Shown here: positions 31,424-46,215 of the stretch, one piece after another | Numbering within the stretch: position 1 is the stretch's first letter | Layout: each line of letters starts with the position of its first letter | Assembly: GCA_035385585.1 (NCBI GenBank) | Contig: DAOOKJ010000002.1 | Coordinates: forward strand, 595 to 64,594 | Origin: Minisyncoccota bacterium | GTDB taxonomy: Bacteria; Patescibacteriota; Minisyncoccia; UBA6257 | DNA: 64,000 bases | Direction: 5' to 3' | Translations under genes and position numbers: made by a program | Notes under the pieces: model-generated | Seen by the model: the letters and a program-made list of their open reading frames with translations, nothing else | Told to the model about the DNA's origin: nothing | The model's database searches: none

Positions 31424-31494
31424 TGCGGGGTAGTGTAACGGTAGCACGTCAGGCTCTGGACCTGAAAATTCTGGTTCGAATCCAGGCCCCGCAG
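31424..31494 (+). tRNA. tRNA-Gln (anticodon CUG)
   Basis: Manual fold: acceptor tgcgggg/ccccgca with U1:A72, anticodon stem tcagg/cctga, loop cuCUGga, T-arm tctgg-ttcgaat-ccagg, discriminator G; no encoded CCA. Confidence 0.7.
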
Positions 31495-31620
31495 CTACCC
31501 TCAGCCAAGGCTACAGAATAGGAAACTAATTTGAAAAATCTAACAATTTTTAATATAATTAAATAATGGTCGAAGATAGGTTTGTTCACCCCCGCGCAAT
31601 AAAATTAAATCAATAAAAAT

Positions 31621-32019
31621 ATGAAAGGATATTTTACTAATATAGAAAAAGATACTTTGGAAAATGAAAATTTTCGCAAAGTACTTTACACCGCCAAACA
31701 CTCTCAGTTGGTGTTAATGAGTCTAAAACCAAAAGAAGAAATCGGAATGGAGGTCCATCTTGAAAATGACCAATTCTTCCGTTTTGAAAAAGGAGAGGGG
31801 AGAGTAATTATTGACGGAAACGAATACCAAGTTTCCGATGGCTCGGCAATCGTAGTGCCAGCCGGTGCTCAGCATAACGTCATTAACCTGTCTGAAACCG
31901 ATAGTTTGAAACTATATACTATTTATTCTCCGGCTCATCACAAAGATGGAATTATTCGCAAAACAAAAGAAGAAGCAATATCCCAAGAAGCAGAATTTGA
32001 CGGAATAACAACAGAATAA
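31621..32019 (+). CDS. Cupin-domain protein
   Basis: 132 aa, double-stranded beta-helix pattern (VVPAGAQHNV). Confidence 0.55.
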   Translation: MKGYFTNIEKDTLENENFRKVLYTAKHSQLVLMSLKPKEEIGMEVHLENDQFFRFEKGEGRVIIDGNEYQVSDGSAIVVPAGAQHNVINLSETDSLKLYTIYSPAHHKDGIIRKTKEEAISQEAEFDGITTE

Positions 32020-32026
32020 ACAATTT

Positions 32027-32605
32027 ATGATTCTTTCTGACCGCGATATTCAAAAAGTAATTAAAGAAAAGAGATTGATTTTTAAGCCGGCTCTATCCAA
32101 AGACCAGATAGGGCCGGCTTCTATTGATTTAAAATTAGGCAGAATTTTTAAATCATTTAACATTTCAAAACAATCAATGTTGGACACAAAAAAAGGACTG
32201 CCAGACAAATCTTTTATTAGCACTCGGAAATTAAAAAACAATGAACCGTTTATCCTGCATCCAACAGATTTTGTTTTAGCCTCAACTAAAGAATATGTAA
32301 AAGTCAGCAACGACTTGGTCCTAAAAGTAGAAGGGAAAAGCACCTTGGCCAGAATGGGAATTTTGGTCCACACAGCTGGCTTTGTTGACCCGGGATTTGA
32401 AGGAACTTTAACTTTAGAAATTTCCAATCAGTCAAATTTACCAGTCGCCCTGTATCCAGAGATGTATATCTGTCAAATTGCCGTAGAACTTCTATCATCT
32501 CCTGCAGAAATACCTTATAATAAGCGAAAAAAGTCACTATATTCGAAATCCAAAGGACCAATAGAAAGTAAAACCCAAAACCTATTTGAAAAAAATAAAT
32601 TTTAG
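32027..32605 (+). CDS. dcd: dCTP deaminase
   Basis: MILSDRDI N-terminus, dUTPase-like fold, 192 aa. Confidence 0.75.
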   Translation: MILSDRDIQKVIKEKRLIFKPALSKDQIGPASIDLKLGRIFKSFNISKQSMLDTKKGLPDKSFISTRKLKNNEPFILHPTDFVLASTKEYVKVSNDLVLKVEGKSTLARMGILVHTAGFVDPGFEGTLTLEISNQSNLPVALYPEMYICQIAVELLSSPAEIPYNKRKKSLYSKSKGPIESKTQNLFEKNKF

Positions 32606-32654: not shown

Positions 32655-32726
32655 TCCGGGGTAGTTCAGCGGTAGAACGCCTGGCTGTTAACCAGGATGT
32701 CCGAGGTTCGAATCCTCGCCCCGGAG
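32655..32726 (+). tRNA. tRNA-Asn (anticodon GUU)
   Basis: Closely matches the bacterial tRNA-Asn pattern: acceptor tccgggg/ccccgga, anticodon arm cctgg-cuGUUaa-ccagg, T-loop ttcgaat, discriminator G; followed by hairpin terminator caccgt-atcaa-acggtg + T-run. Confidence 0.8.
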
Positions 32727-33098
32727 CACTGTAGAACACTTTGAGGCTTGAAGCACCGTATCAAACGGTGTTTTCATTTTAAACATTAGCTTTTCATCCT
32801 TTCACCTCTGTTCGTGCACACTGAATCCATCTATTGAACGAAACCCGAACCTATTTTAGAGAAAATCCCGACGCCGACTTTTAGTTGCCAGCCCGCCGAT
32901 GGCGGGTTGACAACTAAACCCGTCGGCTCGCGGGCAAAAAATTTCTTCACCTAAAACTCCTTTATTCTTTGCCCGCTCGCCGAAATTTCAGCCATTGCCC
33001 GCAAAGCAAGCGTAGATTTTTATTCAATGGATAGTACTATTCCAATTTGGCATATTCTATTATGGAATATATCATAAAGGCAGAGGTAATGTCAAATT

Positions 33099-33320
33099 AT
33101 GAGTAAAACAATTTATTCAAAAGAACATAGGCATATCATTGAGCAATTAAAAAAAGCCCGTGAAGAGGCTAATTTATCGCAGGAAGAAGTCGCCAAAATT
33201 CTCGGTAAAACCCAATCTTATATTTCAAAAATTGAATCGGGGCAGCGAAAGATTGACGTTATTCAGTTAAAAGAATTTGCAAAAATTTACAAGAAAAATT
33301 TAGATTTTTTCTTAAAATAA
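33099..33320 (+). CDS. XRE-family HTH regulator, size and context of a restriction-modification controller (C) protein
   Basis: 73 aa, LSQEEVAKILGKTQSYISKIESGQRKI helix-turn-helix; palindromes (tgga-TAGTACTA-ttcca) in its upstream region. Confidence 0.6.
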   Translation: MSKTIYSKEHRHIIEQLKKAREEANLSQEEVAKILGKTQSYISKIESGQRKIDVIQLKEFAKIYKKNLDFFLK

Positions 33321-33323
33321 ATT

Positions 33324-33863
33324 ATGCACATAAACGAAGTAAAAACAGCAATTAAAGTCGGTGATTTCGTATTAAGAAAAGGGAGTAAAAACAAAATCAG
33401 TTTCCAGTACTCACCAAATCTTAATAAAAAAACGCTTTCCGATGACTCCGCAAGAATATATTTAATTACTCAAGACGGAATCATTAAGAAAATAGGTGGT
33501 TCAATTCAGACAGGAGGAATTAAGGGTACTATCAGTTTTTATATCGGCGCGATGACAGGAAGTCCCGGTAGGCCAAGATTTATTGTTCATTTGCTTATTG
33601 AAAAAGCTCTTAAAAGTGGTTCAAAAGTGGCTTTATATATGATTACTTCACCAAAAACATCAGCCAAAGTTAGTGGTCTATTTGAAACTAAGAAAATGAA
33701 GATCGCTAGTTTCAAAGAAATGGAGGATTTATGTAAATTTGATTACTATTCTAAAGAAAAGAAATATCCTGATTGGAACTTTCAAGAGAATCATCAACCA
33801 TATCCTCCCGAATTAGAAAGGAAGTTTATGGCTTATCACCGGAAGCGTTTGAGTAAGAAGTAA
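33324..33863 (+). CDS. Hypothetical protein; candidate type II restriction endonuclease on positional grounds only
   Basis: 179 aa, 4 bp downstream of the C-like gene, stop abuts the stop of the convergent methyltransferase; possible D...ExK (QDG...LIEKA). Confidence 0.3.
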   Translation: MHINEVKTAIKVGDFVLRKGSKNKISFQYSPNLNKKTLSDDSARIYLITQDGIIKKIGGSIQTGGIKGTISFYIGAMTGSPGRPRFIVHLLIEKALKSGSKVALYMITSPKTSAKVSGLFETKKMKIASFKEMEDLCKFDYYSKEKKYPDWNFQENHQPYPPELERKFMAYHRKRLSKK

Positions 33864-35405
33864 TTATTTTCTTGGTGGACCATAGATTATTATTTCGTGA
33901 GACTCTTTTACATATTTACCATTGCCATTTTTCTTTCTGTTTAGTCCTATTCTTGTTTCTCCTTGCCCCATAGTATATTGCCAACTTGGGAAAAATTGTT
34001 GAAAGTCTTTGTAATATTCTGTTATTGTTGGACAATTATTGTAGGAAAGAATAAATCCTCCTTTGTGATTTTTTAGTAAATCTCGCAGAACCTCGTGGGG
34101 AAATCCATTGTGATGAACTGGAATATTTCTCATTGGGTAAATACCTTTAAACATTTTTGAATCTTTTCCGATATAATAAGGTGGATCGCAGTAGAGAAAA
34201 TCATTGGGATATTTGGGTATTACATCTCGGAAATCTGCACATTCTACTTTTAAGTTCCCTGGTTTAAAATCTCGGATTTTCTCTATCATACTCCTATATC
34301 TTTTATCATTTAGGTAAATTTCTGATGACCAACCCATAAATCCAGGCCCATAAGAGAGGTTAAAGTTGTAGACAAAATAAACAGCCAAAGTAAGGGGATC
34401 TAGTTTTACTTTTTTCTCCCAAACATCTCTTAAAATCAACCTTATTTTTTCAAAGGTTGTTTTATTTGGTTTTAGTTCTTTCAGTTTTTCGTAGAGTAGT
34501 TTCGGCTTTTCTATTTGAAATTTCCAGTAATTGCATAGAATATCAAAAATATCAAATCCGATAACTTCTAATCCCAACTCTTTAGTCATGGCTATTTCAA
34601 TTGAACCCCCTCCAAAAAATGGAGAAATAACTCTTTTTATATTATCCGGTAATAATTCAATAACGTGCCCAACTGCCAAAGTTTTCCCTCCGGCGTATCT
34701 TATAGGAGAAAGAGCAACTCTTTTGTATTTATTTTGACTATTTAGATTTTTACTTCTTATGTGGTTCAAAAACATTTTCTTTTTGTAAGCGAGTGTTTTA
34801 TCTTGAGGAAAGTTTTCCAAATTTCTTATGATTTTAACAACTACGCCCCGTACCTCAACTTCTCTACGATAGATCGGCAGCATAGCTTGATTTGCCGGCT
34901 GTAACCTTATACGATTTTTCTCTCTATAAAGTTTCTTAAGAGTGGCTTCGTTATCGTCGATAATAGCCACCACCGTTTGGCCGTCATCGGCGGTTTCTTG
35001 CTTGCGAATTACAACAATATCGCCATCAAATATACCATCATTAATCATACTATCGCCCTGAACACGCAGGGCATAATATTTCTCATTTGGTCTTATTTCT
35101 TTTTTGGATATAGTAACTTTAGAATCAGACACTTCTATTGCTTCTATAGGTTGACCTGCAGCAATAGTCCCTACGATAGGAATTTTTACAATTTCATCAC
35201 GCTTTGTAGTATCAATAGCGCACGGTTTATTTTCTTCTTTTTCCAGATATCCTAAGTCGCGAAGTTTTGAAACATGAAAGTGAGCCGTTGAGACAGAAGA
35301 AAGCCGGAAATGTTTTGTTATTTCTTCCAAAGAGGGGGCATATCCCTTTTTGTCGGTAAAAGATTTTATAAAGTCTAAAACTTGTTTTTGACGTTTTGTC
35401 AGCAT
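33864..35405 (-). CDS. In-frame fusion: complete LexA repressor (winged-helix, Ala-Gly cleavage site, S24 Ser/Lys peptidase) + Dam-family (D12 class) N6-adenine DNA methyltransferase
   Basis: N-terminal region aligns with LexA (MLTKRQKQVLDFI...; VGTIAAGQPIEA; RVQGDSM...VVIRK); C-terminal region carries RYAGGK, PFFGGGS and DPPY Dam motifs. Confidence 0.75.
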   Translation of the reverse strand: MLTKRQKQVLDFIKSFTDKKGYAPSLEEITKHFRLSSVSTAHFHVSKLRDLGYLEKEENKPCAIDTTKRDEIVKIPIVGTIAAGQPIEAIEVSDSKVTISKKEIRPNEKYYALRVQGDSMINDGIFDGDIVVIRKQETADDGQTVVAIIDDNEATLKKLYREKNRIRLQPANQAMLPIYRREVEVRGVVVKIIRNLENFPQDKTLAYKKKMFLNHIRSKNLNSQNKYKRVALSPIRYAGGKTLAVGHVIELLPDNIKRVISPFFGGGSIEIAMTKELGLEVIGFDIFDILCNYWKFQIEKPKLLYEKLKELKPNKTTFEKIRLILRDVWEKKVKLDPLTLAVYFVYNFNLSYGPGFMGWSSEIYLNDKRYRSMIEKIRDFKPGNLKVECADFRDVIPKYPNDFLYCDPPYYIGKDSKMFKGIYPMRNIPVHHNGFPHEVLRDLLKNHKGGFILSYNNCPTITEYYKDFQQFFPSWQYTMGQGETRIGLNRKKNGNGKYVKESHEIIIYGPPRK

Positions 35406-35443
35406 ACTCTTTAACTTTCGATTTATTTTCGATTACACTTTAA

Positions 35444-35471
35444 TTATAGGGAACATACCAGTCAATGTCAA
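35444..35471 (-). promoter_or_regulatory. Consensus sigma70 promoter (TTGACA-17-TATAAT on the minus strand) driving the LexA-methyltransferase gene
   Basis: Minus-strand reading cttgTTGACAttgactggtatgttcccTATAATtaaag. Confidence 0.5.
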
Positions 35472-35670
35472 CAAGTTTAGTTATCCACAGAGGGATAAAA
35501 AGCTATTGGATTTCGTAGGGTTTTCAGGATTCAACCTCACTAATCCGAAAAACAATATTCTTTTACAAGAATCGGTCGAATTGTAATTGTTTAAAGGATT
35601 AATTGTTGTTTGAAATACAACAACCTGAAATATTATTAATTAAGAACCCTGTAGGTTTGGATTAGATACC

Positions 35671-36054
35671 ATGTTTATGATACAGAAACTGAATCTCATC
35701 TGGAATGGTTATTATTCATATAATGATAGTTCCGTTGAGAGAAACGTACCTGAAAGTGCAGGCGTATACAAAATAAGTGTTTCTCAACAAGATAAAACAT
35801 TAAAAGTTCATTACGTTGGCCAAGCAGAAAACCTAAGAAAAAGATTAAAAGAACACCTCGATACTAGTAATGAACAAAATGAATGTCTTGTAGAACACAT
35901 TGAAAAATATGCCTGTAGTTATAGTTTTGCATTAGTTTCAAGACAGGAAGATAGGGATGCTGCAGAGAGAGCATTGTACATTCATTACAAACCGGAATGC
36001 AATGATCCCGATGCTATTCCTAACGTGCCTGATGTAGAAATTAATCCAAACTAA
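35671..36054 (+). CDS. Small GIY-YIG nuclease-domain protein, divergent from the LexA-methyltransferase gene
   Basis: GVYKI...YVGQAENLRKRLKEH matches GIY-YIG motifs. Confidence 0.55.
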   Translation: MFMIQKLNLIWNGYYSYNDSSVERNVPESAGVYKISVSQQDKTLKVHYVGQAENLRKRLKEHLDTSNEQNECLVEHIEKYACSYSFALVSRQEDRDAAERALYIHYKPECNDPDAIPNVPDVEINPN

Positions 36055-36057
36055 GGT

Positions 36058-36098
36058 AGCGGACGCTATCTGAAAAGATAGCGTCCGCTCTTTTCTTT
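36058..36098 (+). terminator. Rho-independent terminator
   Basis: Perfect 13-bp stem agcggacgctatc/gatagcgtccgct plus T-run. Confidence 0.7.
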
Positions 36099-36254
36099 AT
36101 CTTAACATAAAAGTATGTCAGAAACATCATCACATAAAAGAGTGAAAGGACACGCAGCCGGTAAAAGTGGCGAAACAGAAAAGAAAATTAAATACGGTGG
36201 ACGCATTGATGTTTTTATTTTATTTCACGCAGATTCTAATGTGATTCAGGGCAC

Positions 36255-36345
36255 GGAGCCGTGCACCACGTAGGGTGCACGGCCATGAACCCAGCGTGGT
36301 TTATGGCTAATTTCAAAAAGCCTCTATTTATGAGGCTTTTTTATT
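36255..36345 (+). repeat. Two-hairpin structured element (ccgtgcacc-acgta-gggtgcacgg; ccatgaaccca-gcg-tggtttatgg) followed by its own terminator hairpin; copy 1 of 2
   Basis: Second near-identical copy at 37018..37102; the two copies flank gene 36397..36936. Confidence 0.6.
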
Positions 36346-36396
36346 TCTCTGGACACGTGTGGTATAATAGATAATTAAATAATATCCTATATATCT

Positions 36397-36936
36397 ATGT
36401 CTAAAAAAATAATCATTCCAATAATAGTAGTTATGGTGGGAGGATATTTAGTTTATCACCCTCCAAAAGGAATCAAGCAATCAACGGAAACGCAGAAGTT
36501 TACTCTAGATGCTAAAAATTGCACTTATCTCATTGAAGGTCAGAATATTACTTTAATAAATGGATATTCAGAAGAAGAAATTGCTTCTGGCTCTGCCTCA
36601 AAAATAATTACTAAATATTTTGGTAATGAGGCAGCAGGAGATTTTAATAACGATGGTTTTTCTGATGTAGCCTTTCTTTTAACGCAGGAGACTGGTGGGA
36701 GTGGTACTTTCTTCTATGTAGCAGTTGCCTTAGGGAGTGAGAATAAATGTCTTGGCACTAATGCTATTTTTCTTGGCGACCGAATTGCTCCCCAAACAAT
36801 CAATTTTCAAAATGGCGAAATAATTGTCAACTATGCAGATAGAAATCCAGACGAACCAATGACGGCATCTCCGTCAGTTGGGGTCTCAAAATACTTTCAT
36901 ATAAACGAAGGTCAGTTAGTTGAAATTCAAAAATAA
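36397..36936 (+). CDS. Secreted/membrane-anchored hypothetical protein
   Basis: N-terminal TM/signal IIIPIIVVMVGGYLV; extended -10 promoter tgtggtataat at about 36355. Confidence 0.5.
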   Translation: MSKKIIIPIIVVMVGGYLVYHPPKGIKQSTETQKFTLDAKNCTYLIEGQNITLINGYSEEEIASGSASKIITKYFGNEAAGDFNNDGFSDVAFLLTQETGGSGTFFYVAVALGSENKCLGTNAIFLGDRIAPQTINFQNGEIIVNYADRNPDEPMTASPSVGVSKYFHINEGQLVEIQK

Positions 36937-37017
36937 AATTATAGTTGAGGAGATAAGTCAGGAATGAAAATTGCTTTTCTGTTCGTGATAAACCAGCTTA
37001 TGACTGCCTAAACCCCT

Positions 37018-37102
37018 GTGAGCCGTGCACCACGTAGGGTGCACGGGCCATGAACCCAACGTGGTTTATGGCTTTTTAAAATCGCCCAAAAGGCGATTTT
37101 TT
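37018..37102 (+). repeat. Copy 2 of the two-hairpin element plus terminator hairpin (aaaatcgcccaaaaggcgatttttt)
   Basis: About 90% identical to 36255..36308 over ~55 nt. Confidence 0.6.
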
Positions 37103-37406
37103 GATATAATAGGAATTCAAATGTTTTTTTGATAGATTTTGCCGCTTCTGGAAAGTTTTCCACCTTATTTTTTTGAGTAAAAAATGATACTCTATACTTA
37201 ATATGCAGTTTGAAGAGTTACTTAATCTTTATAAAGAAAAGAAAAAGCCATACAGTAAGATAAAACTAAGAAAACAATGAAATAGTCCCAATTTAAGAAA
37301 ATTCTTAAAAATTCAATAGTCAAAATGTCAAAAGTCAATGGAATGACTAAAATTTAATATGGAGGATAAAAAATATGGACGAGCAGATGACAACATAAAT
37401 TTCTCC

Positions 37407-39848
37407 TTAATTTTGTTCGCCAAAATTTATTCCATAAACTAAACACCAACCTTTACTTTGTTTTCCACTTATTCTCGCTTGTCCTTCAAGAATAGGGGAG
37501 TAATGATTAGGAACTAATTGAGCAATAGCGGCTATCCGGGCAACTAAATCATATTCCTTTATCCAACCTAAAACAGTATTTTTTAGTTGGGTAAAAATCT
37601 CCTTCGCCTTTTGATCATTAACTAAACTTGAACCAAATTCGAGCCGCAAAACTTTCAAATTTTTATCGAAAACACTGGTAACTAATTTCTCTTTTTGAGC
37701 TGTATCGAATTCTCGTAACTTAATAGTATGTGGTAACATCTGTAAAATCAATTGGCCATCGCTGGTAGCTATTAATGACCAAACACAATGCTCATCATTA
37801 AATTCTGGATTAAGCTTATTTTTAGGAAAAGCGCCAATTAAAACTTCTGTAACTTGGCTTCCTTCTATTGGTTCAATTAGTCTATCATAGGGACTGATTC
37901 CGTTTTTATCTTTCTTAAATAAATTTTTTATTTCCTCAAGGGAGGAAATTGCTATCCATCTTCCTCTGCCGGGTAAGTCTGGATGAATACAGGTACGAAT
38001 CGAAGCGTCGTAACCATCATTAATATTTTTTTCAAGTCTCATTATTATTTCTTTAACTTTATTAGGTAACATTATTGAATAGTTTTCCCTTATTTCTGCG
38101 GGAATTAATGCATTTACAATAGTTGTCTCTTTTGCTTTAGAAGACTTAAATAAACTAATCTTTTTCGCTTTTTCCTTTTCAGCGGCTATAAATTGAGCAA
38201 CCTTTTCTATTCCCTTTCTATCTAAAATCCAATACCAAGGGTTTCGCTTTCGCTCTTCTGACCACCTTTTTACTATTTGTCTTTCGTCTTGGGTTAACAT
38301 TGCATTTTTTTCTTCCAGTGGTATCAAACCTCTAAATACTCTTACTTTTTCTCTTCCGATTACTTCTACAGTACAAATCTTTTCAGCAATTTCAGCAGGC
38401 GCCTCAGGAGCACCTATAATAACTGGGATGTTAAATCGCTGAAGCGCTCTTGTCAGATGAGAACCTAGGCTACCGGTAGAAGTAATAATGGCTTTTAACA
38501 AAGAAGAACATTGAAGAAGTTCGGAAGTATCGTCTAAACTTAAAGGACCCCAATAAATGATTTCGTTTCTATCACCCTCTAGATCTTTTAAAGAAGTAAT
38601 CACTCGGTAGCCATGAGCAACACCCGGAGAGATTCCCCACCCTCCTCGGCACAAAACCCCTCCCTCTTTTTCAGCTTTTTGCGCCTCTATTTCATTTAGA
38701 GATGGTTGCAAGAGTTGCTGCAACTCAGAAGCAGTTATCTGTGATATTGCTTCTTTTTCAGAAAGTAGCCCTTTTTTTATTTGCTCAATAAGAAATCTTA
38801 GTTTCGCCAAAGGCGAAAGGGGAAGTTCCCGCAATTGTAAACACCATACAGTATCGCCATCATAAGAAAACTCAAGCTCCTGAGGAAGAGCACAATGCTC
38901 AATAATGGTACCAAAAATTTCTTCTAATTGACTTTTTATTGGAGAATTTGGAAGCTCAGCAAGAGGTTGTGATTCCCGCGTCTCATCACCAACAACAGCC
39001 CTTCCTTGCTTTCCAGGAGCATAAATAATCAAAGGACCCCCAATCAAATCAGATGGATCGTGGGTAAGTAAAACACCAGCGCCAGCCTTTTCAGCATCTC
39101 GATTGGTAAAAATCATTTGTTGGATGATACAAGCCGTACCCCAGTCTTTGGGAATTCCTAATTCTTCCCGCCATCTTCTTGTTCCTTTACTCCCCCAAGA
39201 GCCAAAAACAATTTTAATTCCCTTTAATATCTGTTGATCAATATCCTGAGGAAATTCCTCTCCTGATTCTCTTTTAAAAATCTTTTTTGCTTCAAAAATC
39301 AACGACTCCAATCCAGCTTCATCGGTTTTAGAAGATCTATTAACTAAATCATTAAATTTCTCAGAACCAATTCCCCAAAAACAGCCTAAATTTATAATTA
39401 GATCAAGATAAGATTCATAAGCTCCTCTTACACCAATTTCATTTTTTAAAGTATTTATTGTGTTGTCATTAATCCCAACATTAAGAAGAGTCAACATTAC
39501 CCCGGCCATTGATACTGGTGGACTAGAGCGAATAGAGATAAAAAGAGGTTTTTCTCTATCATTAAAACGTCGGCCGGTTTTTTCCTCTAACCTTCTTAAT
39601 TCCCTCCTAATAATTTCTAAGAAGTTTTCCTCATTCTTTCTTAATGCCCACCAGCCATCTGTGGTGATAATAAATCCTGTTGGTACAGACAGATTCCACG
39701 ATACCATCAATCTTAACTGATATCCTTTATTTCCAAGAAAAAAACAAGCATCTTTATCAGATTCTGGAAAATAACCATCAAGAGGACAACAAATAGAAGA
39801 AGAACAATCTTCAGATGATTCCCTTTCTCTCTTACAATCATCATTCAT
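37407..39848 (-). CDS. PEP-utilising enzyme family protein: PPDK-type N-terminal ATP-grasp domain + phosphohistidine swivel domain + ~290-aa C-terminal domain of unknown type
   Basis: VPTGFIITTDGW PPDK_N signature; TSTGSLGSHLTRALQRFNIPVIIG mobile-domain signature; C-terminus does not look like the usual TIM-barrel PEP-binding domain. Confidence 0.6.
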   Translation of the reverse strand: MNDDCKRERESSEDCSSSICCPLDGYFPESDKDACFFLGNKGYQLRLMVSWNLSVPTGFIITTDGWWALRKNEENFLEIIRRELRRLEEKTGRRFNDREKPLFISIRSSPPVSMAGVMLTLLNVGINDNTINTLKNEIGVRGAYESYLDLIINLGCFWGIGSEKFNDLVNRSSKTDEAGLESLIFEAKKIFKRESGEEFPQDIDQQILKGIKIVFGSWGSKGTRRWREELGIPKDWGTACIIQQMIFTNRDAEKAGAGVLLTHDPSDLIGGPLIIYAPGKQGRAVVGDETRESQPLAELPNSPIKSQLEEIFGTIIEHCALPQELEFSYDGDTVWCLQLRELPLSPLAKLRFLIEQIKKGLLSEKEAISQITASELQQLLQPSLNEIEAQKAEKEGGVLCRGGWGISPGVAHGYRVITSLKDLEGDRNEIIYWGPLSLDDTSELLQCSSLLKAIITSTGSLGSHLTRALQRFNIPVIIGAPEAPAEIAEKICTVEVIGREKVRVFRGLIPLEEKNAMLTQDERQIVKRWSEERKRNPWYWILDRKGIEKVAQFIAAEKEKAKKISLFKSSKAKETTIVNALIPAEIRENYSIMLPNKVKEIIMRLEKNINDGYDASIRTCIHPDLPGRGRWIAISSLEEIKNLFKKDKNGISPYDRLIEPIEGSQVTEVLIGAFPKNKLNPEFNDEHCVWSLIATSDGQLILQMLPHTIKLREFDTAQKEKLVTSVFDKNLKVLRLEFGSSLVNDQKAKEIFTQLKNTVLGWIKEYDLVARIAAIAQLVPNHYSPILEGQARISGKQSKGWCLVYGINFGEQN

Positions 39849-40202
39849 ACTGGTAATATTTTAAACTATAAAATGTAATAAAGTCAATTCCTAGAGTTTA
39901 AGAGGTTATAAGTACTTTATAAATTGTTGCAAATTGATTAGCTGTCTCTTTGTCGCAGAATAATTTTTTTAAATTTAAAACATTAATTTGTTTAATAATC
40001 ACCATTATCGTCACCGATTCCGTGATAAAAATCCCTCATTATGTCTTAAAAATACCTAAATTTAGCGATCATTAGAATTTCTTCCGAAACATTAAAGGAA
40101 GAAATGTGGCCCCCGACCTTAAAAAAGCCATATGGCCCTAGGAATTACCTAAGGCTTTTTTTATTTCACACAGGTTCTAATGTAATCCAGTATTCGGAGC
40201 TA

Positions 40203-40262
40203 CTATTGACTCTTGGTTTTATTTATAGTATGATATAAATACCTTGTAATAGGGTATTTTAA
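40203..40262 (+). promoter_or_regulatory. Promoter-operator module TTGACT-17-TATGAT followed by palindrome atacc-N9-ggtat; paralogous copy at 45569..45628
   Basis: ~85% identity over 55 bp between the two copies. Confidence 0.5.
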
Positions 40263-40331
40263 TAAAAACAAGGTAGTTCTTTGAAAACTATCACATAATT
40301 TATATATAAAAATATAAAAAGGAGGCGAACA

Positions 40332-40721
40332 ATGGATAAAAAAGGGTATATGGCGATAAGACATCATGATCTTAAAGAAGCCCAATGGTGCTCAGATTGT
40401 GATAAGGTAAAAAATAAAGCACTAAATCAAACATTCGTTGGCATACTTGAAGTGGGGGAGATATATAAAGTGGCAGGGAGTAACATAAAAGAACTTAAAA
40501 GATACAACAAGCAGTACCTTCTATTTAAACCGCTTGGTTTTGGTGCCATCTTTTCTATCTCTCAATATCCGCAAGCTATCTCTTTTGCAAAATATTATTC
40601 CAGTCATTCCCTCATGTTTATAATTAAATTTGAAAGAATTTGGAAAATTGAATTTAGAGAGAATATTGAATTTAGAGAATTGACAATAGAGGGGGCAATT
40701 GGTTATTTCCAACCAGAGTAA
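40332..40721 (+). CDS. Hypothetical protein
   Basis: 129 aa ORF with strong RBS aaaggagg, followed by terminator 40738..40768. Confidence 0.5.
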   Translation: MDKKGYMAIRHHDLKEAQWCSDCDKVKNKALNQTFVGILEVGEIYKVAGSNIKELKRYNKQYLLFKPLGFGAIFSISQYPQAISFAKYYSSHSLMFIIKFERIWKIEFRENIEFRELTIEGAIGYFQPE

Positions 40722-40737
40722 TTAGTGAATAAATAGT

Positions 40738-40768
40738 TACCCCAGAGTATTTCTGGGGCTTTTTTATT
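40738..40768 (+). terminator. Rho-independent terminator
   Basis: ccccagag/ctctgggg-type stem + T-run. Confidence 0.6.
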
Positions 40769-40857
40769 TTTCATTTATGGGACTTTTTTGTTTTTTGGTA
40801 AGTGTGGTATAATACATATAAGTTTCATACGTTTACGTTTATAAAGCCTAATATATA

Positions 40858-41547
40858 ATGAATAAAAAAAATTTAATAAATATTATTTTGATAGTAATTA
40901 TTTTCGTTGCTATTGGGGCAATGGGGTATTTTATTTTCATCAAAAAATCAGAAACTATTCCCGAGGAAAGTACCAAAAGGTATACAAATTCATTATTGGG
41001 GATTGAATTTTCTTATCCTCGAAATTTTATTCCTTATCTTCGAGATAATGAATATTTAGGCGATCAACCGTCGCGTTTTGTATCTGGTAAAGATTCATAT
41101 GCTCCATTAGACGAAAACTCTTATTTCGTAATAACTCTTAATGGCGTTAAGGGTTATTATGATTGTCCTTCTTTAGAAAATTCAGAAATGTCTTACTCTG
41201 GTTCATATGAAGATATCCAACAATTCATTCAAGAAGGCAAGTCAATTAAATTTGAGAATTGCAAAGAAATTATTCAAACCATTGATCAAGCCGCTCAAAA
41301 TTCTGCTTATCATAAATTAAAGCCTTTTGGAGAAAATCCAATTATCAAAACATTGCAAATTGAAGGGCAAGAAGCAAGGCTTATAATTCCTTCCGAAAAC
41401 AGTATTAACGAAAGAGAATTAATTGTTGAGCTGAAAAAATCCGTTTTCCTTTTAGATAAATATTGGACATTTTTAGTAATCCATACAAGTCAAGATCCTG
41501 ATGGAAAAACAATGAAGACGATTTTAGAATCATTAACATTTAGATAA
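40858..41547 (+). CDS. Secreted/membrane-anchored hypothetical protein
   Basis: N-terminal TM, extended -10 tgtggtataat at about 40803. Confidence 0.5.
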   Translation: MNKKNLINIILIVIIFVAIGAMGYFIFIKKSETIPEESTKRYTNSLLGIEFSYPRNFIPYLRDNEYLGDQPSRFVSGKDSYAPLDENSYFVITLNGVKGYYDCPSLENSEMSYSGSYEDIQQFIQEGKSIKFENCKEIIQTIDQAAQNSAYHKLKPFGENPIIKTLQIEGQEARLIIPSENSINERELIVELKKSVFLLDKYWTFLVIHTSQDPDGKTMKTILESLTFR

Positions 41548-41567
41548 AATAATCCATCTGGCAAATT

Positions 41568-41600
41568 AAAACCTCGGGATAAAACGCCGAGGTTTTTAAT
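41568..41600. terminator. Bidirectional terminator between convergent genes
   Basis: aaacctcggg...cccgaggttttt. Confidence 0.6.
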
Positions 41601-41637
41601 TAATCGGATAAAGAAAACAAGTTTTGCTTTTATCAAA

Positions 41638-43626
41638 TTATGCAGTGTCAGCATTTATTGGGGAAAGGAATTGACTCATATAGAGATTGTAATAAAATCC
41701 CTTTGCCGCTAGAAGTTTTTTGTGATTTCCTTGTTCTACAATCCGACCTTTATTCATCACTAGAATAATATCAGCATTATAAATAGTGGATAAACGATGA
41801 GCTATAACCAAACTAGTACGGCCTTTTCTTAGTTTTGCCATCGCTTTTTGAATCAACATTTCTGTTCGAGTATCAACAGAACTAGTAGCTTCGTCGAGTA
41901 TCAATATTTTAGGATCAGCTAAAAAGACACGGGCTATGGTTAACAGTTGTTTTTGTCCTTGAGATATGTTAGAAGCGTCGTCGGTCAGTATAGTATCATA
42001 TCCGTCTGGTAATGTTTTGATAAAATGATCTACATAAGCCGTTTGAGCAGCTGAGATTATTTCTTGTTCAGTGGCTCCTTCTTTGCTATAGGCAATATTA
42101 TCCCGGATGGTGCTATTAAATAACCAAGTATCTTGCAAAACCATCCCAAAAATTTTACGGAGGTCATCTCTTCTCATTTTTCTGATATCAACGCCATCTA
42201 TAGAAATACATCCGCGGTCTATTTCATAAAAACGCATTAATAAATTTACTAAGGTTGTTTTACCGGCACCAGTTGGACCAACTATTGCCACAGTTTCTCC
42301 AGGCTTAATCTCTAAATTTAAATCCTCAATTAGAGGAGTATCAGGGTTGTAGCTAAAGTAGACATGTTCAAATTTTATTTCTCCCTTTACTTTTTCCAGT
42401 ACTACGGGATTTTCTATATCTGGTATTTCTTCTTTTTCATCTAAAAGTTCAAATACTCGTTCAGCTGAGGCGGCCGTAGATTGAAGAATATTTAAAATAC
42501 TGGCTACTTGAACTACTGGTTGGGTAAATTGTTTAGAATATTGAATGAAAGCCTGGACGCCACCAAGGGTAATAAGACCTTTCGCTACTCGAATTCCCCC
42601 AATAATACAAATGACAACATAATTGAGATTATTTAAAAAATTTACTGAGGGACGAATTAAACTTGATATGAATTGAGCCTTAAAACTAGATTCATAAACC
42701 TTTTGATTTTCTTCATTAAAACGTTCTTTGGCTTTTTCTTCCCGGTTGAATGCTTTGATAATATTGTGGCCGGTAAATGTTTCTTCAATATGGCCATTCA
42801 AAGTACCAGTGCTGTCCCATTGAGCTATAAAGTATTTTTGGGATTTATTAATCACTAATCCAGCAATCAAAAGAGCTAAAGGAATAATCACAAGAGATAT
42901 CCAAGTAAGCAGGGAACTAATAGAAAACATCATAATAAGAACTCCAACGACGACAGCAATCGCGTGGACTATTTGAGTAATATTTTGCTGGAGGGTATGA
43001 GCAATATTATCTACATCATTAGTCACTCGGCTTAAGATATCACCATGAGAGTGATTATCGTAATATTTTAAAGGTAATTTAGCGAGTTTGGCATCTACTT
43101 CTCGTCGTACCCGATAGACAGTATTTTGGGCAACGCCAGCCATTGTATACTGTTGTAGCCATTGAAAGAAAGCTCCTAAAAGATACACTATCAAAAGAGT
43201 AATTAATATCTGCTTCAAGGCTTGAAAATCTATGCCCTTGCCAGGCACAAGATTCATTACCGATATCATCTCTGCGAGTTGATTTTGTCCTTTTGCTTTT
43301 AATTCAGCAATAGCTTGTTCTTTAGTTATCCCGCTAGATAACTGTTTACTTATTACTCCTTCAAATAATTTATTAGTAGCTTCGCCTATTATTCTAGGTG
43401 CAAAAATAGTAAAAGTCACGCTCAAAATAGTAAAAATTACCACTAATAATAAAGGAATTGCTTGAGGCTTAAGATAAATAATAAGACGCTTCATCGTTCC
43501 TCTGAAGTCTTTAGCTTTTTCCACTGACCTAGCAGCAACTCGTGCTCCGCCACCGAATCTACCCTGCCTCCTTTGGATTTGTCCTCTTATTGGTGGTTTA
43601 TTATTTTGATTATTATTAACACTCAT
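41638..43626 (-). CDS. ABC exporter, fused permease-ATPase (MsbA/multidrug type)
   Basis: 6-TM domain + Walker A GPTGAGKTT, signature ISQGQKQ, Walker B ILILDEATS. Confidence 0.85.
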   Translation of the reverse strand: MSVNNNQNNKPPIRGQIQRRQGRFGGGARVAARSVEKAKDFRGTMKRLIIYLKPQAIPLLLVVIFTILSVTFTIFAPRIIGEATNKLFEGVISKQLSSGITKEQAIAELKAKGQNQLAEMISVMNLVPGKGIDFQALKQILITLLIVYLLGAFFQWLQQYTMAGVAQNTVYRVRREVDAKLAKLPLKYYDNHSHGDILSRVTNDVDNIAHTLQQNITQIVHAIAVVVGVLIMMFSISSLLTWISLVIIPLALLIAGLVINKSQKYFIAQWDSTGTLNGHIEETFTGHNIIKAFNREEKAKERFNEENQKVYESSFKAQFISSLIRPSVNFLNNLNYVVICIIGGIRVAKGLITLGGVQAFIQYSKQFTQPVVQVASILNILQSTAASAERVFELLDEKEEIPDIENPVVLEKVKGEIKFEHVYFSYNPDTPLIEDLNLEIKPGETVAIVGPTGAGKTTLVNLLMRFYEIDRGCISIDGVDIRKMRRDDLRKIFGMVLQDTWLFNSTIRDNIAYSKEGATEQEIISAAQTAYVDHFIKTLPDGYDTILTDDASNISQGQKQLLTIARVFLADPKILILDEATSSVDTRTEMLIQKAMAKLRKGRTSLVIAHRLSTIYNADIILVMNKGRIVEQGNHKKLLAAKGFYYNLYMSQFLSPINADTA

Positions 43627-45364
43627 ATATTATCTTTTTATTATTAGACAGTTGAGAATGCACGATATCACGATAGATTTCACAGATTTTCATAAGTTGA
43701 TTATGAGTGCCAATTCCTGCAATAGTACCATCGTCATTCAATACTACAATTTGATCAGCATCCAAAATAGTACTTACTCTTTGGGCTACAATAATGACAG
43801 CCGAATGAGTAGTTTCTTTTTTAAGGGCTAGTCGCAGTTGAGCATCAGTTTTAAAGTCTAAGGCAGAAAAGCTATCATCAAATAAGTATATCTCTGGTTT
43901 TTTGACTAAAGCCCGGGCAACAGCCAGTCTTTGACGTTGTCCTCCTGAAAAGTTAACTCCTCCCTGTTCAACAGGGGCGTATAACTTATCCGGCAGATCC
44001 ATTACAAAATTCTTAGCTTGAGCTATTTCTAAAGCGTGCCAGAGTTCTTCTTCAGTAGCGTTTTCATTTCCGTAGCGTAAATTATCGGCGATTGTGCCGC
44101 TGAAAAGAAAAGCTTTTTGAGGAACTAATCCTATTCGGTTTCTTAAATCTTTCAGAGATATTTGGCGGATATCTATACCATCTATCTTTATGCTTCCATT
44201 AGTCACATCATAAAAACGAGATATTAAAGCTATCAAAGTACTTTTTCCGCAACCAGTGCTTCCGATAATAGCAGTAGTTTTTCCAGGTATTGCTGTAAAT
44301 GTTATATCTTTGAGAACTAATTCTTCTGCATCAGGATAGTTAAAATCTACCTTAGAAAACTCTACTTTTCCTTCTATTCTTGGAGGTAAAGTTACTGATT
44401 TAGAAGGATCTTTAATAGACGGCTCGGTATTAAAAACTTCCAATAATCGCTCAGCTGAAGCTTCTGCTCGAGGCATCATAATAAACATACTCATAGCCAA
44501 AGTAACTGCTATCATAATTTCCATAATGTAAGTTAAAAAAGCAGTTAGATTACCTATTGCCATTGCTCCACTTTCTATTCTGTGACCTCCAAACCAAATA
44601 ATGGCGATGGTAGCCATATTCATAATAATGAGAAGAGAGGGTATGGCCAAAGCAATAATTCGATTTACTCTTAAGGTAGTAGCAGTAAGGTCACGATTTG
44701 CTTTATCAAAACGTCGGGCTTCATAATTATTCTTCACAAAGGCTCTTATAACCCTGACACCCATCAGTTTTTCTCGCATAATTTGGTTCACGCGATCTAT
44801 TTTACTCTGAATGGAACGAAATAGTGGTATAGCCTTTATTAAAATAAGCCATACTACCACCGCCATCAAAGGAGCAATAATAATGATAGAAGAAGACAGC
44901 ACTACGTCCTGCCGCAAAGCCATTATAATTCCGCCCAAGCACATAATAGGGGCTATAACCATAAGATTTAATCCTAAAATTACCAGCATCTGGATTTGGT
45001 GCACATCATTGGTATTGCGGGTGATAAGAGAAGGAGTGCCAAATTTATCAAGGTCAGCTTGCGAGAAACTTTCCACTTTATAAAATACTGCTTGTCTCAT
45101 ATCCCGACCTAAACTCATTGAGATTTTGGAACCTAGATAAGAAGAGGATATAGCGCAAGCCGCTAATATTAGGGTAACTACCAGCATAAAAGCGCCCGTC
45201 CTTATAATATAATTGATATCTCCCTTGGCCATCCCATTGTTAATAATATTAGCGTTAAGATTAGGCAAATAAAGACTGGCCATTACTTGAGCCAATAATA
45301 AAACTACAGCCAAGGCGACCTGTTTTCTATAGGGTTTTAAAAATTTTATTAATAAATCTTTCAT
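43616..45364 (-). CDS. ABC exporter, fused permease-ATPase, probable heterodimer partner
   Basis: GSTGCGKST Walker A, FSGGQRQR signature, YLFDDSFSALD. Confidence 0.85.
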   Translation of the reverse strand: MKDLLIKFLKPYRKQVALAVVLLLAQVMASLYLPNLNANIINNGMAKGDINYIIRTGAFMLVVTLILAACAISSSYLGSKISMSLGRDMRQAVFYKVESFSQADLDKFGTPSLITRNTNDVHQIQMLVILGLNLMVIAPIMCLGGIIMALRQDVVLSSSIIIIAPLMAVVVWLILIKAIPLFRSIQSKIDRVNQIMREKLMGVRVIRAFVKNNYEARRFDKANRDLTATTLRVNRIIALAIPSLLIIMNMATIAIIWFGGHRIESGAMAIGNLTAFLTYIMEIMIAVTLAMSMFIMMPRAEASAERLLEVFNTEPSIKDPSKSVTLPPRIEGKVEFSKVDFNYPDAEELVLKDITFTAIPGKTTAIIGSTGCGKSTLIALISRFYDVTNGSIKIDGIDIRQISLKDLRNRIGLVPQKAFLFSGTIADNLRYGNENATEEELWHALEIAQAKNFVMDLPDKLYAPVEQGGVNFSGGQRQRLAVARALVKKPEIYLFDDSFSALDFKTDAQLRLALKKETTHSAVIIVAQRVSTILDADQIVVLNDDGTIAGIGTHNQLMKICEIYRDIVHSQLSNNKKIIYEC

Positions 45365-46204: not shown

Positions 46205-46215
46205 AGGTTTGTTTT

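What the first reader, a model, noticed from the sequence alone, without database searches (positions are those of the whole stretch)
32727..40200. Accessory island downstream of tRNA-Gln and tRNA-Asn, with GC-rich structured non-coding segments
Coding density drops sharply after tRNA-Asn (32726). The next ~7.5 kb carries the R-M-like module, a GIY-YIG gene, a secreted protein flanked by paired structured repeats, and a divergent PEP-utilising-enzyme gene, separated by long non-coding stretches with strong promoters and terminators. Segment 32865..33010 is locally GC-rich with nested palindromes (gccgacttttagttgcc-agcccgcc-gatg-gcgggtt-gacaactaaacccgtcggc; cgcgggcaaa...tttgcccgc). tRNA 3' flanks are classical integration sites, yet no integrase or tRNA-fragment direct repeat was found.
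Basis: partly seen in the sequence, partly recalled or inferred. Interest (0 to 1): 0.5.

Follow-up and report, generated by a model that had tools for sequence, protein, structure and literature searches.

The report
Swappable gene block beside tRNA-Asn
Next to a tRNA gene in an uncultured ultra-small (Patescibacteria) bacterium lies a patchwork of swappable gene blocks, and one block holds a restriction-modification system whose protective methylase is fused to LexA, the cell's DNA-damage switch.

Summary
Region 32728-40331 has the lowest coding density in the window (75% against 93%) and 5 of its 6 long intergenic gaps.

The accessory-island reading is largely supported. Gene order upstream of tRNA-Asn is conserved in about 10 related genomes. 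Everything downstream differs, and two close relatives carry other cargo or another order. Fifteen same-species contigs show 69 variable sites in the flanks and none in the island.

It is not a classical island. No recombinase occurs in 64 kb, composition is ordinary, and only the last 6 nt of the tRNA (CGGAGC) recur at module junctions.

The R-M module is real: a C protein, a GIY-YIG endonuclease, and a D12 adenine methylase fused to a complete LexA. This fusion-plus-nuclease pair is conserved in more than 120 protein clusters of Patescibacteria, in different genomic contexts. I found no paper describing it.

The GC-rich segment (32865-32985) is one copy of a dispersed two-hairpin repeat that is abundant in metagenomes and absent from Rfam. 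The PEP-utilising gene is a rare dikinase lacking the pyruvate-binding domain.

The parts
31424..31495 (+). tRNA-Gln(CTG). Its 3' flank also varies among relatives.
32027..32605 (+). dCTP deaminase. Last gene of the conserved left flank.
   Evidence: Pfam DCD, E 1.5e-41. Synteny.
32655..32727 (+). tRNA-Asn(GTT). Anchor of the variable region. It ends in CGGAGC.
32728..32806 (+). Segment A: the trailer and terminator hairpin after tRNA-Asn. In relative L028 the same sequence lies 2.9 kb from the tRNA and is again preceded by CGGAGC.
   Evidence: blastn L028 4136-4220 = window 32722-32806, 92%. Sequences.
32826..32985 (+). Copy of a dispersed two-hairpin GC-rich repeat. It has a conserved leader, a variable GC-rich hairpin (32873-32922) and a conserved hairpin (32923-32983: GGCTCGCGGGCAAAAAA, C-rich loop, TTTGCCCGCTCGCC).
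   Evidence: (I23). No Rfam match.
33099..33320 (+). Controller (C) protein of the R-M system, an HTH_3 protein.
   Evidence: Pfam HTH_3, E 1.4e-17. PADLOC Control_protein, E 3e-8.
33324..33863 (+). GIY-YIG restriction endonuclease, 179 aa.
33864..35405 (-). Fusion protein of 513 aa: complete LexA (residues 1-196) followed by a type II D12 N6-adenine methylase (residues about 206-507).
   Evidence: TIGR00498 lexA 187.5 bits (cut-off 110.95). Pfam. PADLOC MTase_II, E 1.3e-112. Cleavage site and Ser/Lys dyad aligned to E. coli LexA.
35406..35490 (-). Promoter region of the lexA-methylase gene. It holds a perfect TTGACA-17-TATAAT, the direct repeat ATCGAAAATAAATCGAAA (35416-35433) and TTATCCACA (35481-35489).
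35671..36054 (+). Small free-standing GIY-YIG protein, 127 aa.
   Evidence: Pfam GIY-YIG, E 1.8e-5. Weak match to the UvrC N-terminus in NCBIfam.
36215..36259 (+). Boundary repeat D3a, ending in CGGAGC. Right end of module 1.
   Evidence: (D3)
36260..36373 (+). Double hairpin copy 1 (36260-36308) followed by a terminator-promoter cassette (36315-36373).
   Evidence: (D9, D10, D2, D6). In L028 and L029 the same hairpins follow tRNA-Asn directly.
36397..36936 (+). 179-aa protein with an N-terminal membrane anchor or signal. It is 98% identical in L231.
37020..37100 (+). Double hairpin copy 2 followed by a terminator.
37407..39848 (-). PPDK-like dikinase, 813 aa. It has the ATP-grasp and phospho-His swivel domains and an unassigned C-terminal domain in place of the PEP/pyruvate barrel.
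40156..40200 (+). Boundary repeat D3b, ending in CGGAGC. Right end of module 2.
   Evidence: homology with L231 ends at 40124
40332..41547 (+). Module 3: a 129-aa ORF, a second terminator-promoter cassette (40740-40818) and a 229-aa anchored protein. The 229-aa gene is shared with L028 and L231 but sits in a different position in each.
41638..45364 (-). Two ABC exporter genes. They form the conserved right flank relative to L028 but are absent at this place in L231.

Best explanation
**What it is.** Region 32728 to about 41600 is a hypervariable, mosaic accessory region anchored at the 3' end of tRNA-Asn. It sits in the chromosome of a Paceibacteria-type Patescibacteria (CPR) bacterium from anaerobic digesters.

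**Its modules.**
- Module 1 (32728-36259): tRNA trailer, a dispersed GC-rich repeat, the C/R/LexA-M restriction-modification block, and a small GIY-YIG gene.
- Module 2 (36260-40200): a hairpin-flanked gene for an anchored protein, and a PPDK-like dikinase.
- Module 3 (40201-41637): two small genes.

**How modules move.** They are delimited by short reused boundary sequences:
- the tRNA-terminal hexamer CGGAGC preceded by a 45-nt 'D3' arm;
- a 53-nt double hairpin;
- a terminator-promoter cassette.

Among close relatives the same modules appear in other orders or with other cargo. The current version appears to have spread recently through the population. No resident recombinase exists. I infer exchange by incoming DNA recombining through the conserved flanks and the repeated boundaries, possibly with a recombinase acting in trans at the CGGAGC core.

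**The R-M block.**
- It is a type II system.
- Its GIY-YIG nuclease is controlled by a C protein.
- Its methylase is made as the C-terminal extension of a cleavage-competent LexA.
- I infer that methylase synthesis is LexA-autoregulated and rises on DNA damage, including self-restriction.

**Shown:** anatomy, variability, domain content, folds, conservation. **Inferred:** the exchange mechanism and the regulatory logic.
For: **Variable region**
- Lowest coding density in the window, and 5 of its 6 long gaps.
- Upstream synteny is kept in about 10 genomes while downstream content differs in all.
- L028 keeps both flanks but replaces the cargo. L231 reshuffles it.
- Six of 11 related contigs end 110 nt or less after tRNA-Asn. 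One same-species contig ends as tRNA-Asn plus 'C', the hairpin-type junction.

**Junction logic**
- Window: tRNA|A ... D3a-CGGAGC|hairpin ... D3b-CGGAGC.
- L028: tRNA|hairpin ... D3c-CGGAGC|A.

**Population signal**
- 0 of 69 variable sites from 15 same-species contigs fall in 32728-40200. The last flank SNP is at 32470 and the first on the other side at 40610.

**R-M block**
- Domains and folds.
- The fusion plus convergent nuclease occurs in 6 unrelated contexts. It is found in more than 120 clusters at 73-93% identity.
- In L229 the block again lies just downstream of a tRNA (tRNA-Ser, duplicated 4.1 kb apart), with the same leader sequence.
- Stand-alone methylase and R+M versions exist in IMG/VR (putative viral) contigs.
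Against: - No integrase, transposase or resolvase lies in the island or anywhere in the 64 kb.
- GC content and tetranucleotide usage are those of the host.
- The tRNA-derived repeat is only 6 nt long. CGGAGC occurs 9 times in the window, as expected by chance. The rest of D3 is no more similar to tRNA-Asn than shuffled sequence.
- Module boundaries rest on only three species.
- SNPs are clustered in patches, so the P value for an SNP-free island is overstated, and a second 5-kb SNP-free stretch exists.
- All same-species contigs that span the region carry the island, so no empty site has been seen directly.
- LexA-M/R diverges about as much as core genes. That fits vertical inheritance with relocation as well as mobility.
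Confidence: 0.7

Rival explanations
1. Classical tandem integrative elements. Two or three islands were inserted one after another by a tyrosine or serine recombinase at the 3' end of tRNA-Asn, with a CGGAGC core and the D3 sequence as the attP arm. The integrase gene was since lost or is encoded elsewhere in the genome.
For: - CGGAGC recurs exactly at the junctions, preceded by homologous 45-nt arms.
- The partners at the junctions are swapped between the window and L028, as attL/attR/attP logic predicts.
- L229 has two identical tRNA-Ser copies bounding a 4.1-kb accessory cassette.
- Relatives carry a serine recombinase (L032) or a 417-aa ORF that by eye looks transposase-like (L029, not checked against any family library) directly after dcd/tRNA-Asn.
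Against: - No recombinase in 64 kb.
- The repeat is 6 nt, far shorter than usual att duplications.
- D3 is not significantly tRNA-like.
- Composition is not foreign.
Confidence: 0.3
2. Not an island. The region is ancestral chromosome. The differences among relatives reflect the generally fast rearrangement and gene loss of CPR genomes. The low coding density only reflects convergent and divergent promoters and terminators.
For: - Uniform composition.
- The island is present in every same-species contig that spans it.
- LexA-M/R is clade-wide.
- Contexts of that pair differ in every genome examined, which suggests general shuffling.
Against: - Synteny is well kept on the upstream side in the same set of genomes and collapses exactly at tRNA-Asn.
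- Both flanks are retained in L028 around different cargo.
- The SNP-free stretch coincides with modules 1 and 2.
- Assembly breaks cluster at the tRNA.
Confidence: 0.15
3. Homing by free-standing GIY-YIG endonucleases. The small GIY-YIG genes (127 aa here; 83 aa next to the double hairpin in L028 and L231) cut near the tRNA-Asn/hairpin site in genomes that lack them. Repair then copies the endonuclease gene and its neighbours.
For: - In L028 an 83-aa GIY-YIG gene directly follows the double hairpin. In L231 a copy with an internal deletion, apparently disrupted, sits in the same place. It has been deleted precisely between the hairpin and the terminator-promoter cassette in the window.
- The 127-aa gene lies just upstream of D3a.
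Against: - Only weak family matches (E 1.8e-5).
- No DNA-binding domain is evident in proteins of 83-127 aa.
- No target site is known.
- The association is seen in three genomes only.
Confidence: 0.1
4. The GC-rich segment 32865-33010 is a locus-specific structured RNA, a leader or sRNA that controls the C-R operon, rather than a copy of a repeat.
For: - Strong predicted fold (z -6.4).
- It sits between a terminator and the C gene. A related leader plus GC-rich palindromes precede the C gene in L229.
- The conserved loop is C-rich (CCUCC-like).
Against: - One 18-mer from it retrieves 119 metagenome stretches, and the scan stopped at its limit. None encodes the R-M genes.
- Of 116 copies, 22 lie at contig ends, and many form near-identical inverted pairs around unrelated genes.
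- The loop is found flipped in some copies, which an RNA whose function depends on its loop sequence should not tolerate.
- No Rfam family matches.
Confidence: 0.1

Closest known systems
tRNA-linked genomic islands and integrative elements (for example islands at asn tRNA genes in enterobacteria)
   Same: - Sits directly at the 3' end of a tRNA gene.
- Presence and content vary among close relatives.
- Carries defence and surface-protein cargo.
- The tRNA terminus is repeated at the junctions.
   Different: - No integrase.
- The repeat is 6 nt rather than 15-50 nt.
- Host-like composition.
- Built of small reshuffled cassettes rather than one element.
Type II R-M systems with a C protein and a GIY-YIG nuclease (R.Hpy188I, R.Eco29kI), and methylases that autoregulate through an N-terminal HTH (M.SsoII, M.EcoRII; recalled from memory)
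   Same: - A D12 N6-adenine methylase convergent with a small GIY-YIG nuclease.
- An HTH controller upstream of the nuclease.
- An N-terminal DNA-binding extension on the methylase.
   Different: - The extension is a complete LexA: winged HTH plus an S24 self-cleaving domain with the Ala-Gly site and the Ser/Lys dyad.
- The pair is conserved clade-wide. In four of the six contexts examined it has no C protein.
LexA, the SOS repressor
   Same: - Full-length match above the equivalog cut-off.
- Catalytic and cleavage residues are present.
- A conserved direct repeat lies in its own promoter. Direct-repeat LexA boxes are known (PMC8565304).
   Different: - It carries a 310-residue DNA methylase on its C-terminus.
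- It is paired with a restriction nuclease.
- Its regulon is unknown.
REP/BIME elements and MITEs such as Correia, ERIC or BOX elements (recalled from memory)
   Same: - Short, about 120-190 nt.
- Intergenic, multi-copy and strongly palindromic.
- Breaks assemblies.
   Different: - Two hairpins: one variable and GC-rich, one with a conserved stem and a conserved C-rich loop.
- Strong excess of inward-facing inverted pairs around ordinary genes.
- No associated transposase was seen. Target-site duplications were not examined.
Integron cassette arrays and attC clusters without an integrase (CALINs)
   Same: Small cassettes separated by structured repeats, with their order permuted between relatives.
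   Different: - No IntI.
- Cassettes lie in both orientations and have their own promoters.
- The boundary repeat is a pair of hairpins, not an attC.
Pyruvate phosphate dikinase and rifampin phosphotransferase
   Same: An ATP-grasp nucleotide domain and a swivelling phospho-His domain (invariant GSH). Foldseek E 2e-31 to PPDK.
   Different: - The C-terminal 290 residues are not the PEP/pyruvate TIM barrel (PF02896 is absent).
- The family is small: 62 clusters among 1.84 billion representative proteins.

Membership tests
tRNA-associated genomic island / integrative element | Lies immediately 3' of a tRNA gene | tested here: met
   The variable DNA starts at 32728, directly after tRNA-Asn.
tRNA-associated genomic island / integrative element | Presence or absence, or different content, in related genomes with conserved flanks | tested here: met
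   L028 keeps both flanks with other cargo. L231 is reshuffled. About 10 genomes are syntenic only upstream.
tRNA-associated genomic island / integrative element | Encodes an integrase or recombinase | tested here: not met
   Pfam on about 50 ORFs of the window, and tblastn with five proteins from relatives (three with Pfam recombinase or integrase domains), found none.
tRNA-associated genomic island / integrative element | Direct repeat of the tRNA 3' segment at the distal end | tested here: inconclusive
   Only CGGAGC (6 nt) recurs, at 36254 and 40195. The rest of the D3 arm is not tRNA-like.
tRNA-associated genomic island / integrative element | Composition deviating from the host | tested here: not met
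   GC 0.32-0.38, as in the whole window. Tetranucleotide z at most 1.06.
Type II restriction-modification system with C protein | SAM-dependent DNA methylase domain | tested here: met
   PF02086, E 1.4e-31. PADLOC MTase_II, E 1.3e-112.
Type II restriction-modification system with C protein | Adjacent endonuclease with a nuclease fold and conserved catalytic residues | tested here: met
Type II restriction-modification system with C protein | HTH controller gene upstream of the nuclease | tested here: met
   33099-33320, 3 nt before the nuclease gene. HTH_3 and Control_protein models.
Type II restriction-modification system with C protein | Matching cleavage and methylation specificity | not testable with these tools
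   Needs a methylome or enzymology.
LexA (SOS repressor) | LexA winged-HTH plus S24 peptidase domains, full length | tested here: met
   TIGR00498, 187.5 bits against a cut-off of 110.95, residues 2-196. PF01726 and PF00717.
LexA (SOS repressor) | Ala-Gly cleavage site and Ser/Lys catalytic dyad | tested here: met
   Aligned to E. coli LexA: AAG (A83-G84), GDSM (S119), TLKK (K157).
LexA (SOS repressor) | Operator in its own promoter and upstream of SOS genes | tested here: inconclusive
   The direct repeat AT(A/C)GAAAATAAAT(A/C)GAAA lies upstream of the fusion gene in 4 of 6 contexts, plus a variant in a fifth. No convincing second site occurs in the window; uvrABC has none.
LexA (SOS repressor) | RecA-stimulated self-cleavage; only lexA of the genome | not testable with these tools
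   Only 64 kb of the genome is available.
REP/BIME or MITE-type dispersed repeat (GC-rich element) | Many dispersed intergenic copies | tested here: met
22 copies are at contig ends and 22 loci hold two copies. Only one copy lies in this window.
REP/BIME or MITE-type dispersed repeat (GC-rich element) | Palindromic structure | tested here: met
   Two hairpins, z -6.4. The variable hairpin keeps its pairing with different sequences across subfamilies.
REP/BIME or MITE-type dispersed repeat (GC-rich element) | Terminal inverted repeats with target-site duplication, or an associated transposase | not tested
   No transposase lies between paired copies. Target-site duplications were not examined.
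Any Rfam RNA family | Covariance-model match | tested here: not met
   Only the tRNAs reach threshold. No match in the permissive search reached its family's gathering score, and none fits the element, either in the window copy or in three typical family loci.
Integron / CALIN cassette array | IntI integrase, attC sites, co-oriented promoterless cassettes | tested here: not met
   No integrase. Genes lie on both strands with their own promoter cassettes. attC models were not run.
Pyruvate phosphate dikinase | ATP-grasp, phospho-His swivel and PEP/pyruvate TIM barrel | tested here: not met
   The first two domains are present (PF01326, PF00391; invariant H464). PF02896 is absent. TIGR01828 scores 206 bits against a cut-off of 843.

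The most novel reading that the evidence does not exclude
The LexA-methylase fusion with its GIY-YIG partner is not a selfish R-M system that happens to sit next to lexA. Instead it is the SOS master regulator of a large Patescibacteria lineage, physically coupled to genome methylation. Under-methylation or self-cleavage raises RecA activity. LexA then self-cleaves, its own promoter opens, and more methylase is made. Because the repressor and the methylase are one gene, losing the system would also remove the SOS repressor. A bolder variant is that the nuclease acts as a methyl-directed repair or strand-discrimination enzyme, as MutH does with Dam. Separately, the tRNA-Asn region may be an integrase-less cassette array whose cassettes are permuted at CGGAGC cores.
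Probability: 0.3. Interest if true: 0.8.

Novelty: new variant of a known kind. Interest (0 to 1): 0.55.

Why it matters
Patescibacteria are thought to have small, streamlined genomes with little regulation and few recognised mobile elements.

- **Accessory DNA without an integrase.** This locus shows how accessory DNA may still turn over in them. Small cassettes are reshuffled next to a tRNA gene without a resident integrase, and one version appears to have swept through digester populations.
- **A defence system wired to the damage response.** Hundreds of related genomes encode the DNA-damage repressor and a restriction-system methylase as a single polypeptide. If the fusion works as inferred, it is a natural circuit linking defence-system homeostasis to the SOS response. 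It would also be a new way for an R-M system to become indispensable. It can be tested directly with purified protein and with metagenomic methylomes.
- **A practical point for assemblies.** The GC-rich repeat family is abundant, uncatalogued and fragments CPR assemblies, so it matters for genome reconstruction.

Tried and rejected
1. **The GC-rich motif as terminal inverted repeat of an element carrying the R-M block.** Rejected. None of the 119 metagenome loci holding the 18-mer encodes LexA-M, R179 or the C protein. Paired copies enclose unrelated ordinary genes.
2. **D3 repeats as decayed tRNA-Asn copies.** A MAFFT alignment suggested this. Local-alignment scores do not exceed shuffled sequence (p about 0.2). 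Only the terminal CGGAGC is shared.
3. **Enrichment of the GC-rich element downstream of tRNAs.** Eight of about 125 copies lie 100-300 nt downstream of a tRNA in the same orientation. That is about what intergenic placement alone would give, so no claim is made.
4. **Consensus RNA structure for the repeat family with RNAalifold on a MAFFT alignment.** It failed. The variable hairpin is misaligned, and the 5' arm was fixed by the search pattern, so covariation cannot be judged.
5. **A LexA regulon in the available sequence.** The promoter repeat has no convincing second site in the window or the fetched loci.
6. **Literature on a LexA-methylase fusion.** Four searches found nothing. The one directly relevant paper, Sanchez-Osuna et al. 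2017 on the Patescibacteria SOS network, is not held and may mention it.
7. **The double hairpin in viral contigs.** No match.
8. **Recombinase search.** tblastn with five proteins from relatives, three of them with Pfam recombinase or integrase domains, found nothing below E 0.4.

Full report
**1. Source and setting**

The window is about 33% GC. Contigs 99.6-100% identical to it occur in many anaerobic-digester metagenomes. Public names for identical or related proteins are Candidatus Paceibacterota and Patescibacteria.

The rest of the window is ordinary chromosome:
- type IV pilus genes, two MreB, MreC and PBP2;
- tRNA synthetases, DnaX and dCTP deaminase;
- ABC exporters, Mur ligase and Ddl;
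- UvrB, UvrA and UvrC.

**2. The observation**

From 32728 to 40331 coding density is 74.6%, against 93% on either side. That is lower than all 282 sliding spans of the same size. Five of the six gaps of 250 nt or more in the window lie here.

Terminator-like hairpins are enriched (18 against 8.2 +/- 3.3 expected). Promoter-like sites are not enriched overall.

The quoted palindromes are real and fold much better than shuffles (z -6.4). So do the two copies of the 53-nt double hairpin that flank the 179-aa anchored protein.

**3. Is it an accessory island?**

*Within the species.* Every contig that spans the region has the same order. More distant genomes were therefore needed.

*More distant genomes.* A scan with dCTP deaminase gave 80 loci.
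- In about 10 of them, at 55-82% protein identity, the block SerRS, two small genes, a VirB4-like ATPase, DnaX, tRNA-Gln and dcd is syntenic. Nothing downstream is shared.
- Downstream, those genomes hold unrelated genes. L032 has a serine recombinase plus a methylase. L029 has a 417-aa ORF that by eye looks like a transposase; I did not check it against any family library.

*The closest species, L028.*
- Left flank: cupin 93% and dcd 96%.
- Right flank: ABC exporters 83-89%, MliC protein 92%, MFS 98%.
- Between tRNA-Asn and the 229-aa gene it has an 83-aa GIY-YIG gene and a 476-aa RCC1-repeat protein instead of the window's seven genes.

*A third species, L231.*
- It carries the dikinase (90% protein identity), the anchored protein (98%) and the 229-aa gene in a different order.
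- It also has a PrsW protease gene.
- It lacks the ABC and MliC genes at this position.

*Assembly breaks.* Six of 11 related contigs with tRNA-Asn end 110 nt or less after it.

*Population data.* Fifteen same-species contigs differ from the window at 69 sites between 22027 and 53626. None lies in 32728-40200. The nearest are at 32470 and 40610. SNPs are patchy, so the nominal P of 8e-9 is too optimistic. Still, this is the longest invariant stretch, and it coincides with modules 1 and 2.

*Against a classical island.* GC and tetranucleotide usage are unremarkable, and no recombinase is present.

**4. Junction anatomy**

In L028 and L029 the double hairpin follows tRNA-Asn directly. L041 has the second hairpin there.

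In the window the tRNA is followed instead by segment A (32728-32806). The hairpins lie 3.5 kb further on and are preceded by a 45-nt sequence, D3a, that ends in CGGAGC, the last six bases of the tRNA.

A second D3 copy (40156-40200, 80% identical) also ends in CGGAGC.

In L028 segment A lies 2.9 kb from the tRNA. It is again preceded by ...TTCGGAGC and by a weakly D3-like arm.

The two genomes therefore show the four combinations of left partner (tRNA or D3) and right partner (A or hairpin). This is what recombination at a common short core would produce. Two cautions apply:
- the core is only 6 nt and is not over-represented in the window;
- D3 is not demonstrably derived from the tRNA.

A terminator-promoter cassette (36315-36373 and 40740-40818) is also present in L028 and L231. 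It precedes the genes for the two anchored proteins here and the RCC1-repeat gene in L028, and lies upstream of the PrsW gene in L231. It offers further homology for shuffling.

**5. The R-M block**

*The three genes.*
- The 73-aa HTH protein matches controller-protein models.
- The 513-aa protein is a full LexA followed by a type II D12 methylase. The cleavage site and the Ser/Lys dyad align with E. coli LexA.

*Distribution.*
- The best 120 database clusters (73-93% identity) all carry the three domains. Sources name them Wolfebacteria, Giovannonibacteria and Patescibacteria.
- The nuclease family has 571 members.
- In six unrelated genomic contexts the two genes are convergent and abutting. 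DNA similarity to the window stops at the edges of the block.
- A C gene is present only here and in L229.
- In L229 the block again lies just after a tRNA, one of two identical tRNA-Ser genes 4.1 kb apart. It has the same leader sequence and GC-rich palindromes.
- Stand-alone methylase (76% identity) and tandem nuclease-plus-methylase versions without LexA occur in IMG/VR (putative viral) contigs. The fusion therefore joined an ordinary R-M methylase to LexA.

*Promoter.* The fusion gene has a perfect sigma-70 consensus. The direct repeat ATCGAAAATAAATCGAAA lies between the -10 box and the start codon. It recurs upstream of the fusion in 4 of 6 contexts, with a variant in a fifth. A TTATCCACA box lies just upstream in 5 of 6. 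Direct-repeat LexA boxes are known in other phyla (PMC8565304).

*Inference.* I infer LexA-type autoregulation and damage-inducible methylase synthesis. This has not been tested.

*Literature.* I found no paper describing the fusion. The 2017 study of the Patescibacteria SOS network could not be read.

**6. The GC-rich segment**

An 18-mer from its second hairpin retrieved 119 metagenome stretches before the scan hit its limit.

The family is a repeat of about 120-190 nt made of:
- a leader;
- a variable GC-rich hairpin whose sequence differs between subfamilies while the pairing is kept;
- a conserved hairpin with the stem GGCTCGCGGGCAAAAAA / TTTTTTGCCCGCTCGCC and the loop TTTCCTCCCCTAAAACCCCTCCA.

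Of 116 copies, 22 lie at contig ends. Of 22 loci with two copies, 16 have them inverted and facing inward around 0.8-6 kb of unrelated genes. Their arms are 96-100% identical.

A few copies have the loop flipped.

No Rfam family matches.

The element therefore behaves as dispersed repetitive DNA, not as a locus-specific RNA. Its orientation bias is unexplained.

**7. Other cargo**

*The 813-aa dikinase-like protein.*
- It has the PPDK ATP-grasp and phospho-His domains (Foldseek E 2e-31; invariant GSH).
- It lacks the PEP/pyruvate barrel.
- In the word-indexed search, the only hits covering at least 95% of the query were one at 91% and one at 33% identity.
- Its C-terminal domain defines a small family: 62 clusters among 1.84 billion representative proteins.

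*The small GIY-YIG genes.* The 127-aa gene here and the 83-aa gene next to the hairpins in L028 and L231 may be selfish endonucleases.

**8. Verdict**

The island reading is supported by comparative and population evidence, but the region is not a classical integrase-borne island.

The most interesting content is the clade-wide LexA-methylase fusion with its GIY-YIG partner, followed by the uncatalogued repeat family.

Noticed in passing
window 33864-35405 (-) and homologues P0001-P0120: A complete, cleavage-competent LexA is fused to a type II D12 adenine methylase. All 120 best database clusters (73-93% identity) share the three-domain architecture. In the six genomic contexts I examined, it is paired with a convergent GIY-YIG nuclease. 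I found no description in the searchable literature.
   Followed up: yes
window 32865-32985; loci L108-L226: A dispersed two-hairpin GC-rich repeat family in Patescibacteria metagenomes. There is a strong excess of inward-facing inverted pairs around ordinary genes, and occasional copies have a flipped loop. It is not in Rfam.
   Followed up: partly
window 31496-31620 and relatives L031-L047: The 3' flank of tRNA-Gln is also variable. The cupin gene (31621-32019) is present only in the closest relatives, and 0.1-4.7 kb separate tRNA-Gln from dcd in the others. An inverted partial copy of the tRNA-Gln 5' end and its upstream flank lies at 31587-31614 (repeat I4).
   Followed up: partly
window 41001-47000: The ABC-exporter region has the most deviant tetranucleotide usage in the window (z about 2.4-2.8 in the listed spans; the window maximum is at 42001-47000). 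It is absent from this position in L231. It may be accessory too.
   Followed up: no
window 33772-34938 in same-species contigs: Several assemblies break inside the R-M block: at 33772, at 33898-33912, at 34798-34816 (the LexA/methylase junction) and at 34938. This hints at strain heterogeneity or a second methylase copy.
   Followed up: no
window 46365-47297; L014, L018: The MliC-domain protein is 310 aa in some strains and 299 aa in others. The small GIY-YIG protein is called as 125 or 127 aa.
   Followed up: no
L229 8750-8838 and 12924-13011: Two identical tRNA-Ser(TGA) genes 4.1 kb apart bound a cassette with a Gp49/HTH toxin-antitoxin pair and a radical SAM gene. The LexA-M/R/C block follows the proximal copy.
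   Followed up: partly
window 4790-5152: A gene for a 23S rRNA intervening-sequence protein (PF05635, bAvd-like) sits inside the type IV pilus gene cluster.
   Followed up: no
window 37407-39848 (-): The PPDK-like protein has an unassigned C-terminal domain of about 290 residues. It belongs to a small family of about 800-850-aa proteins. The substrate is unknown.
   Followed up: partly
window 59743-60936: UvrC is only 397 aa. It has the GIY-YIG and RNase H-like domains but apparently lacks the usual C-terminal helix-hairpin-helix region.
   Followed up: no
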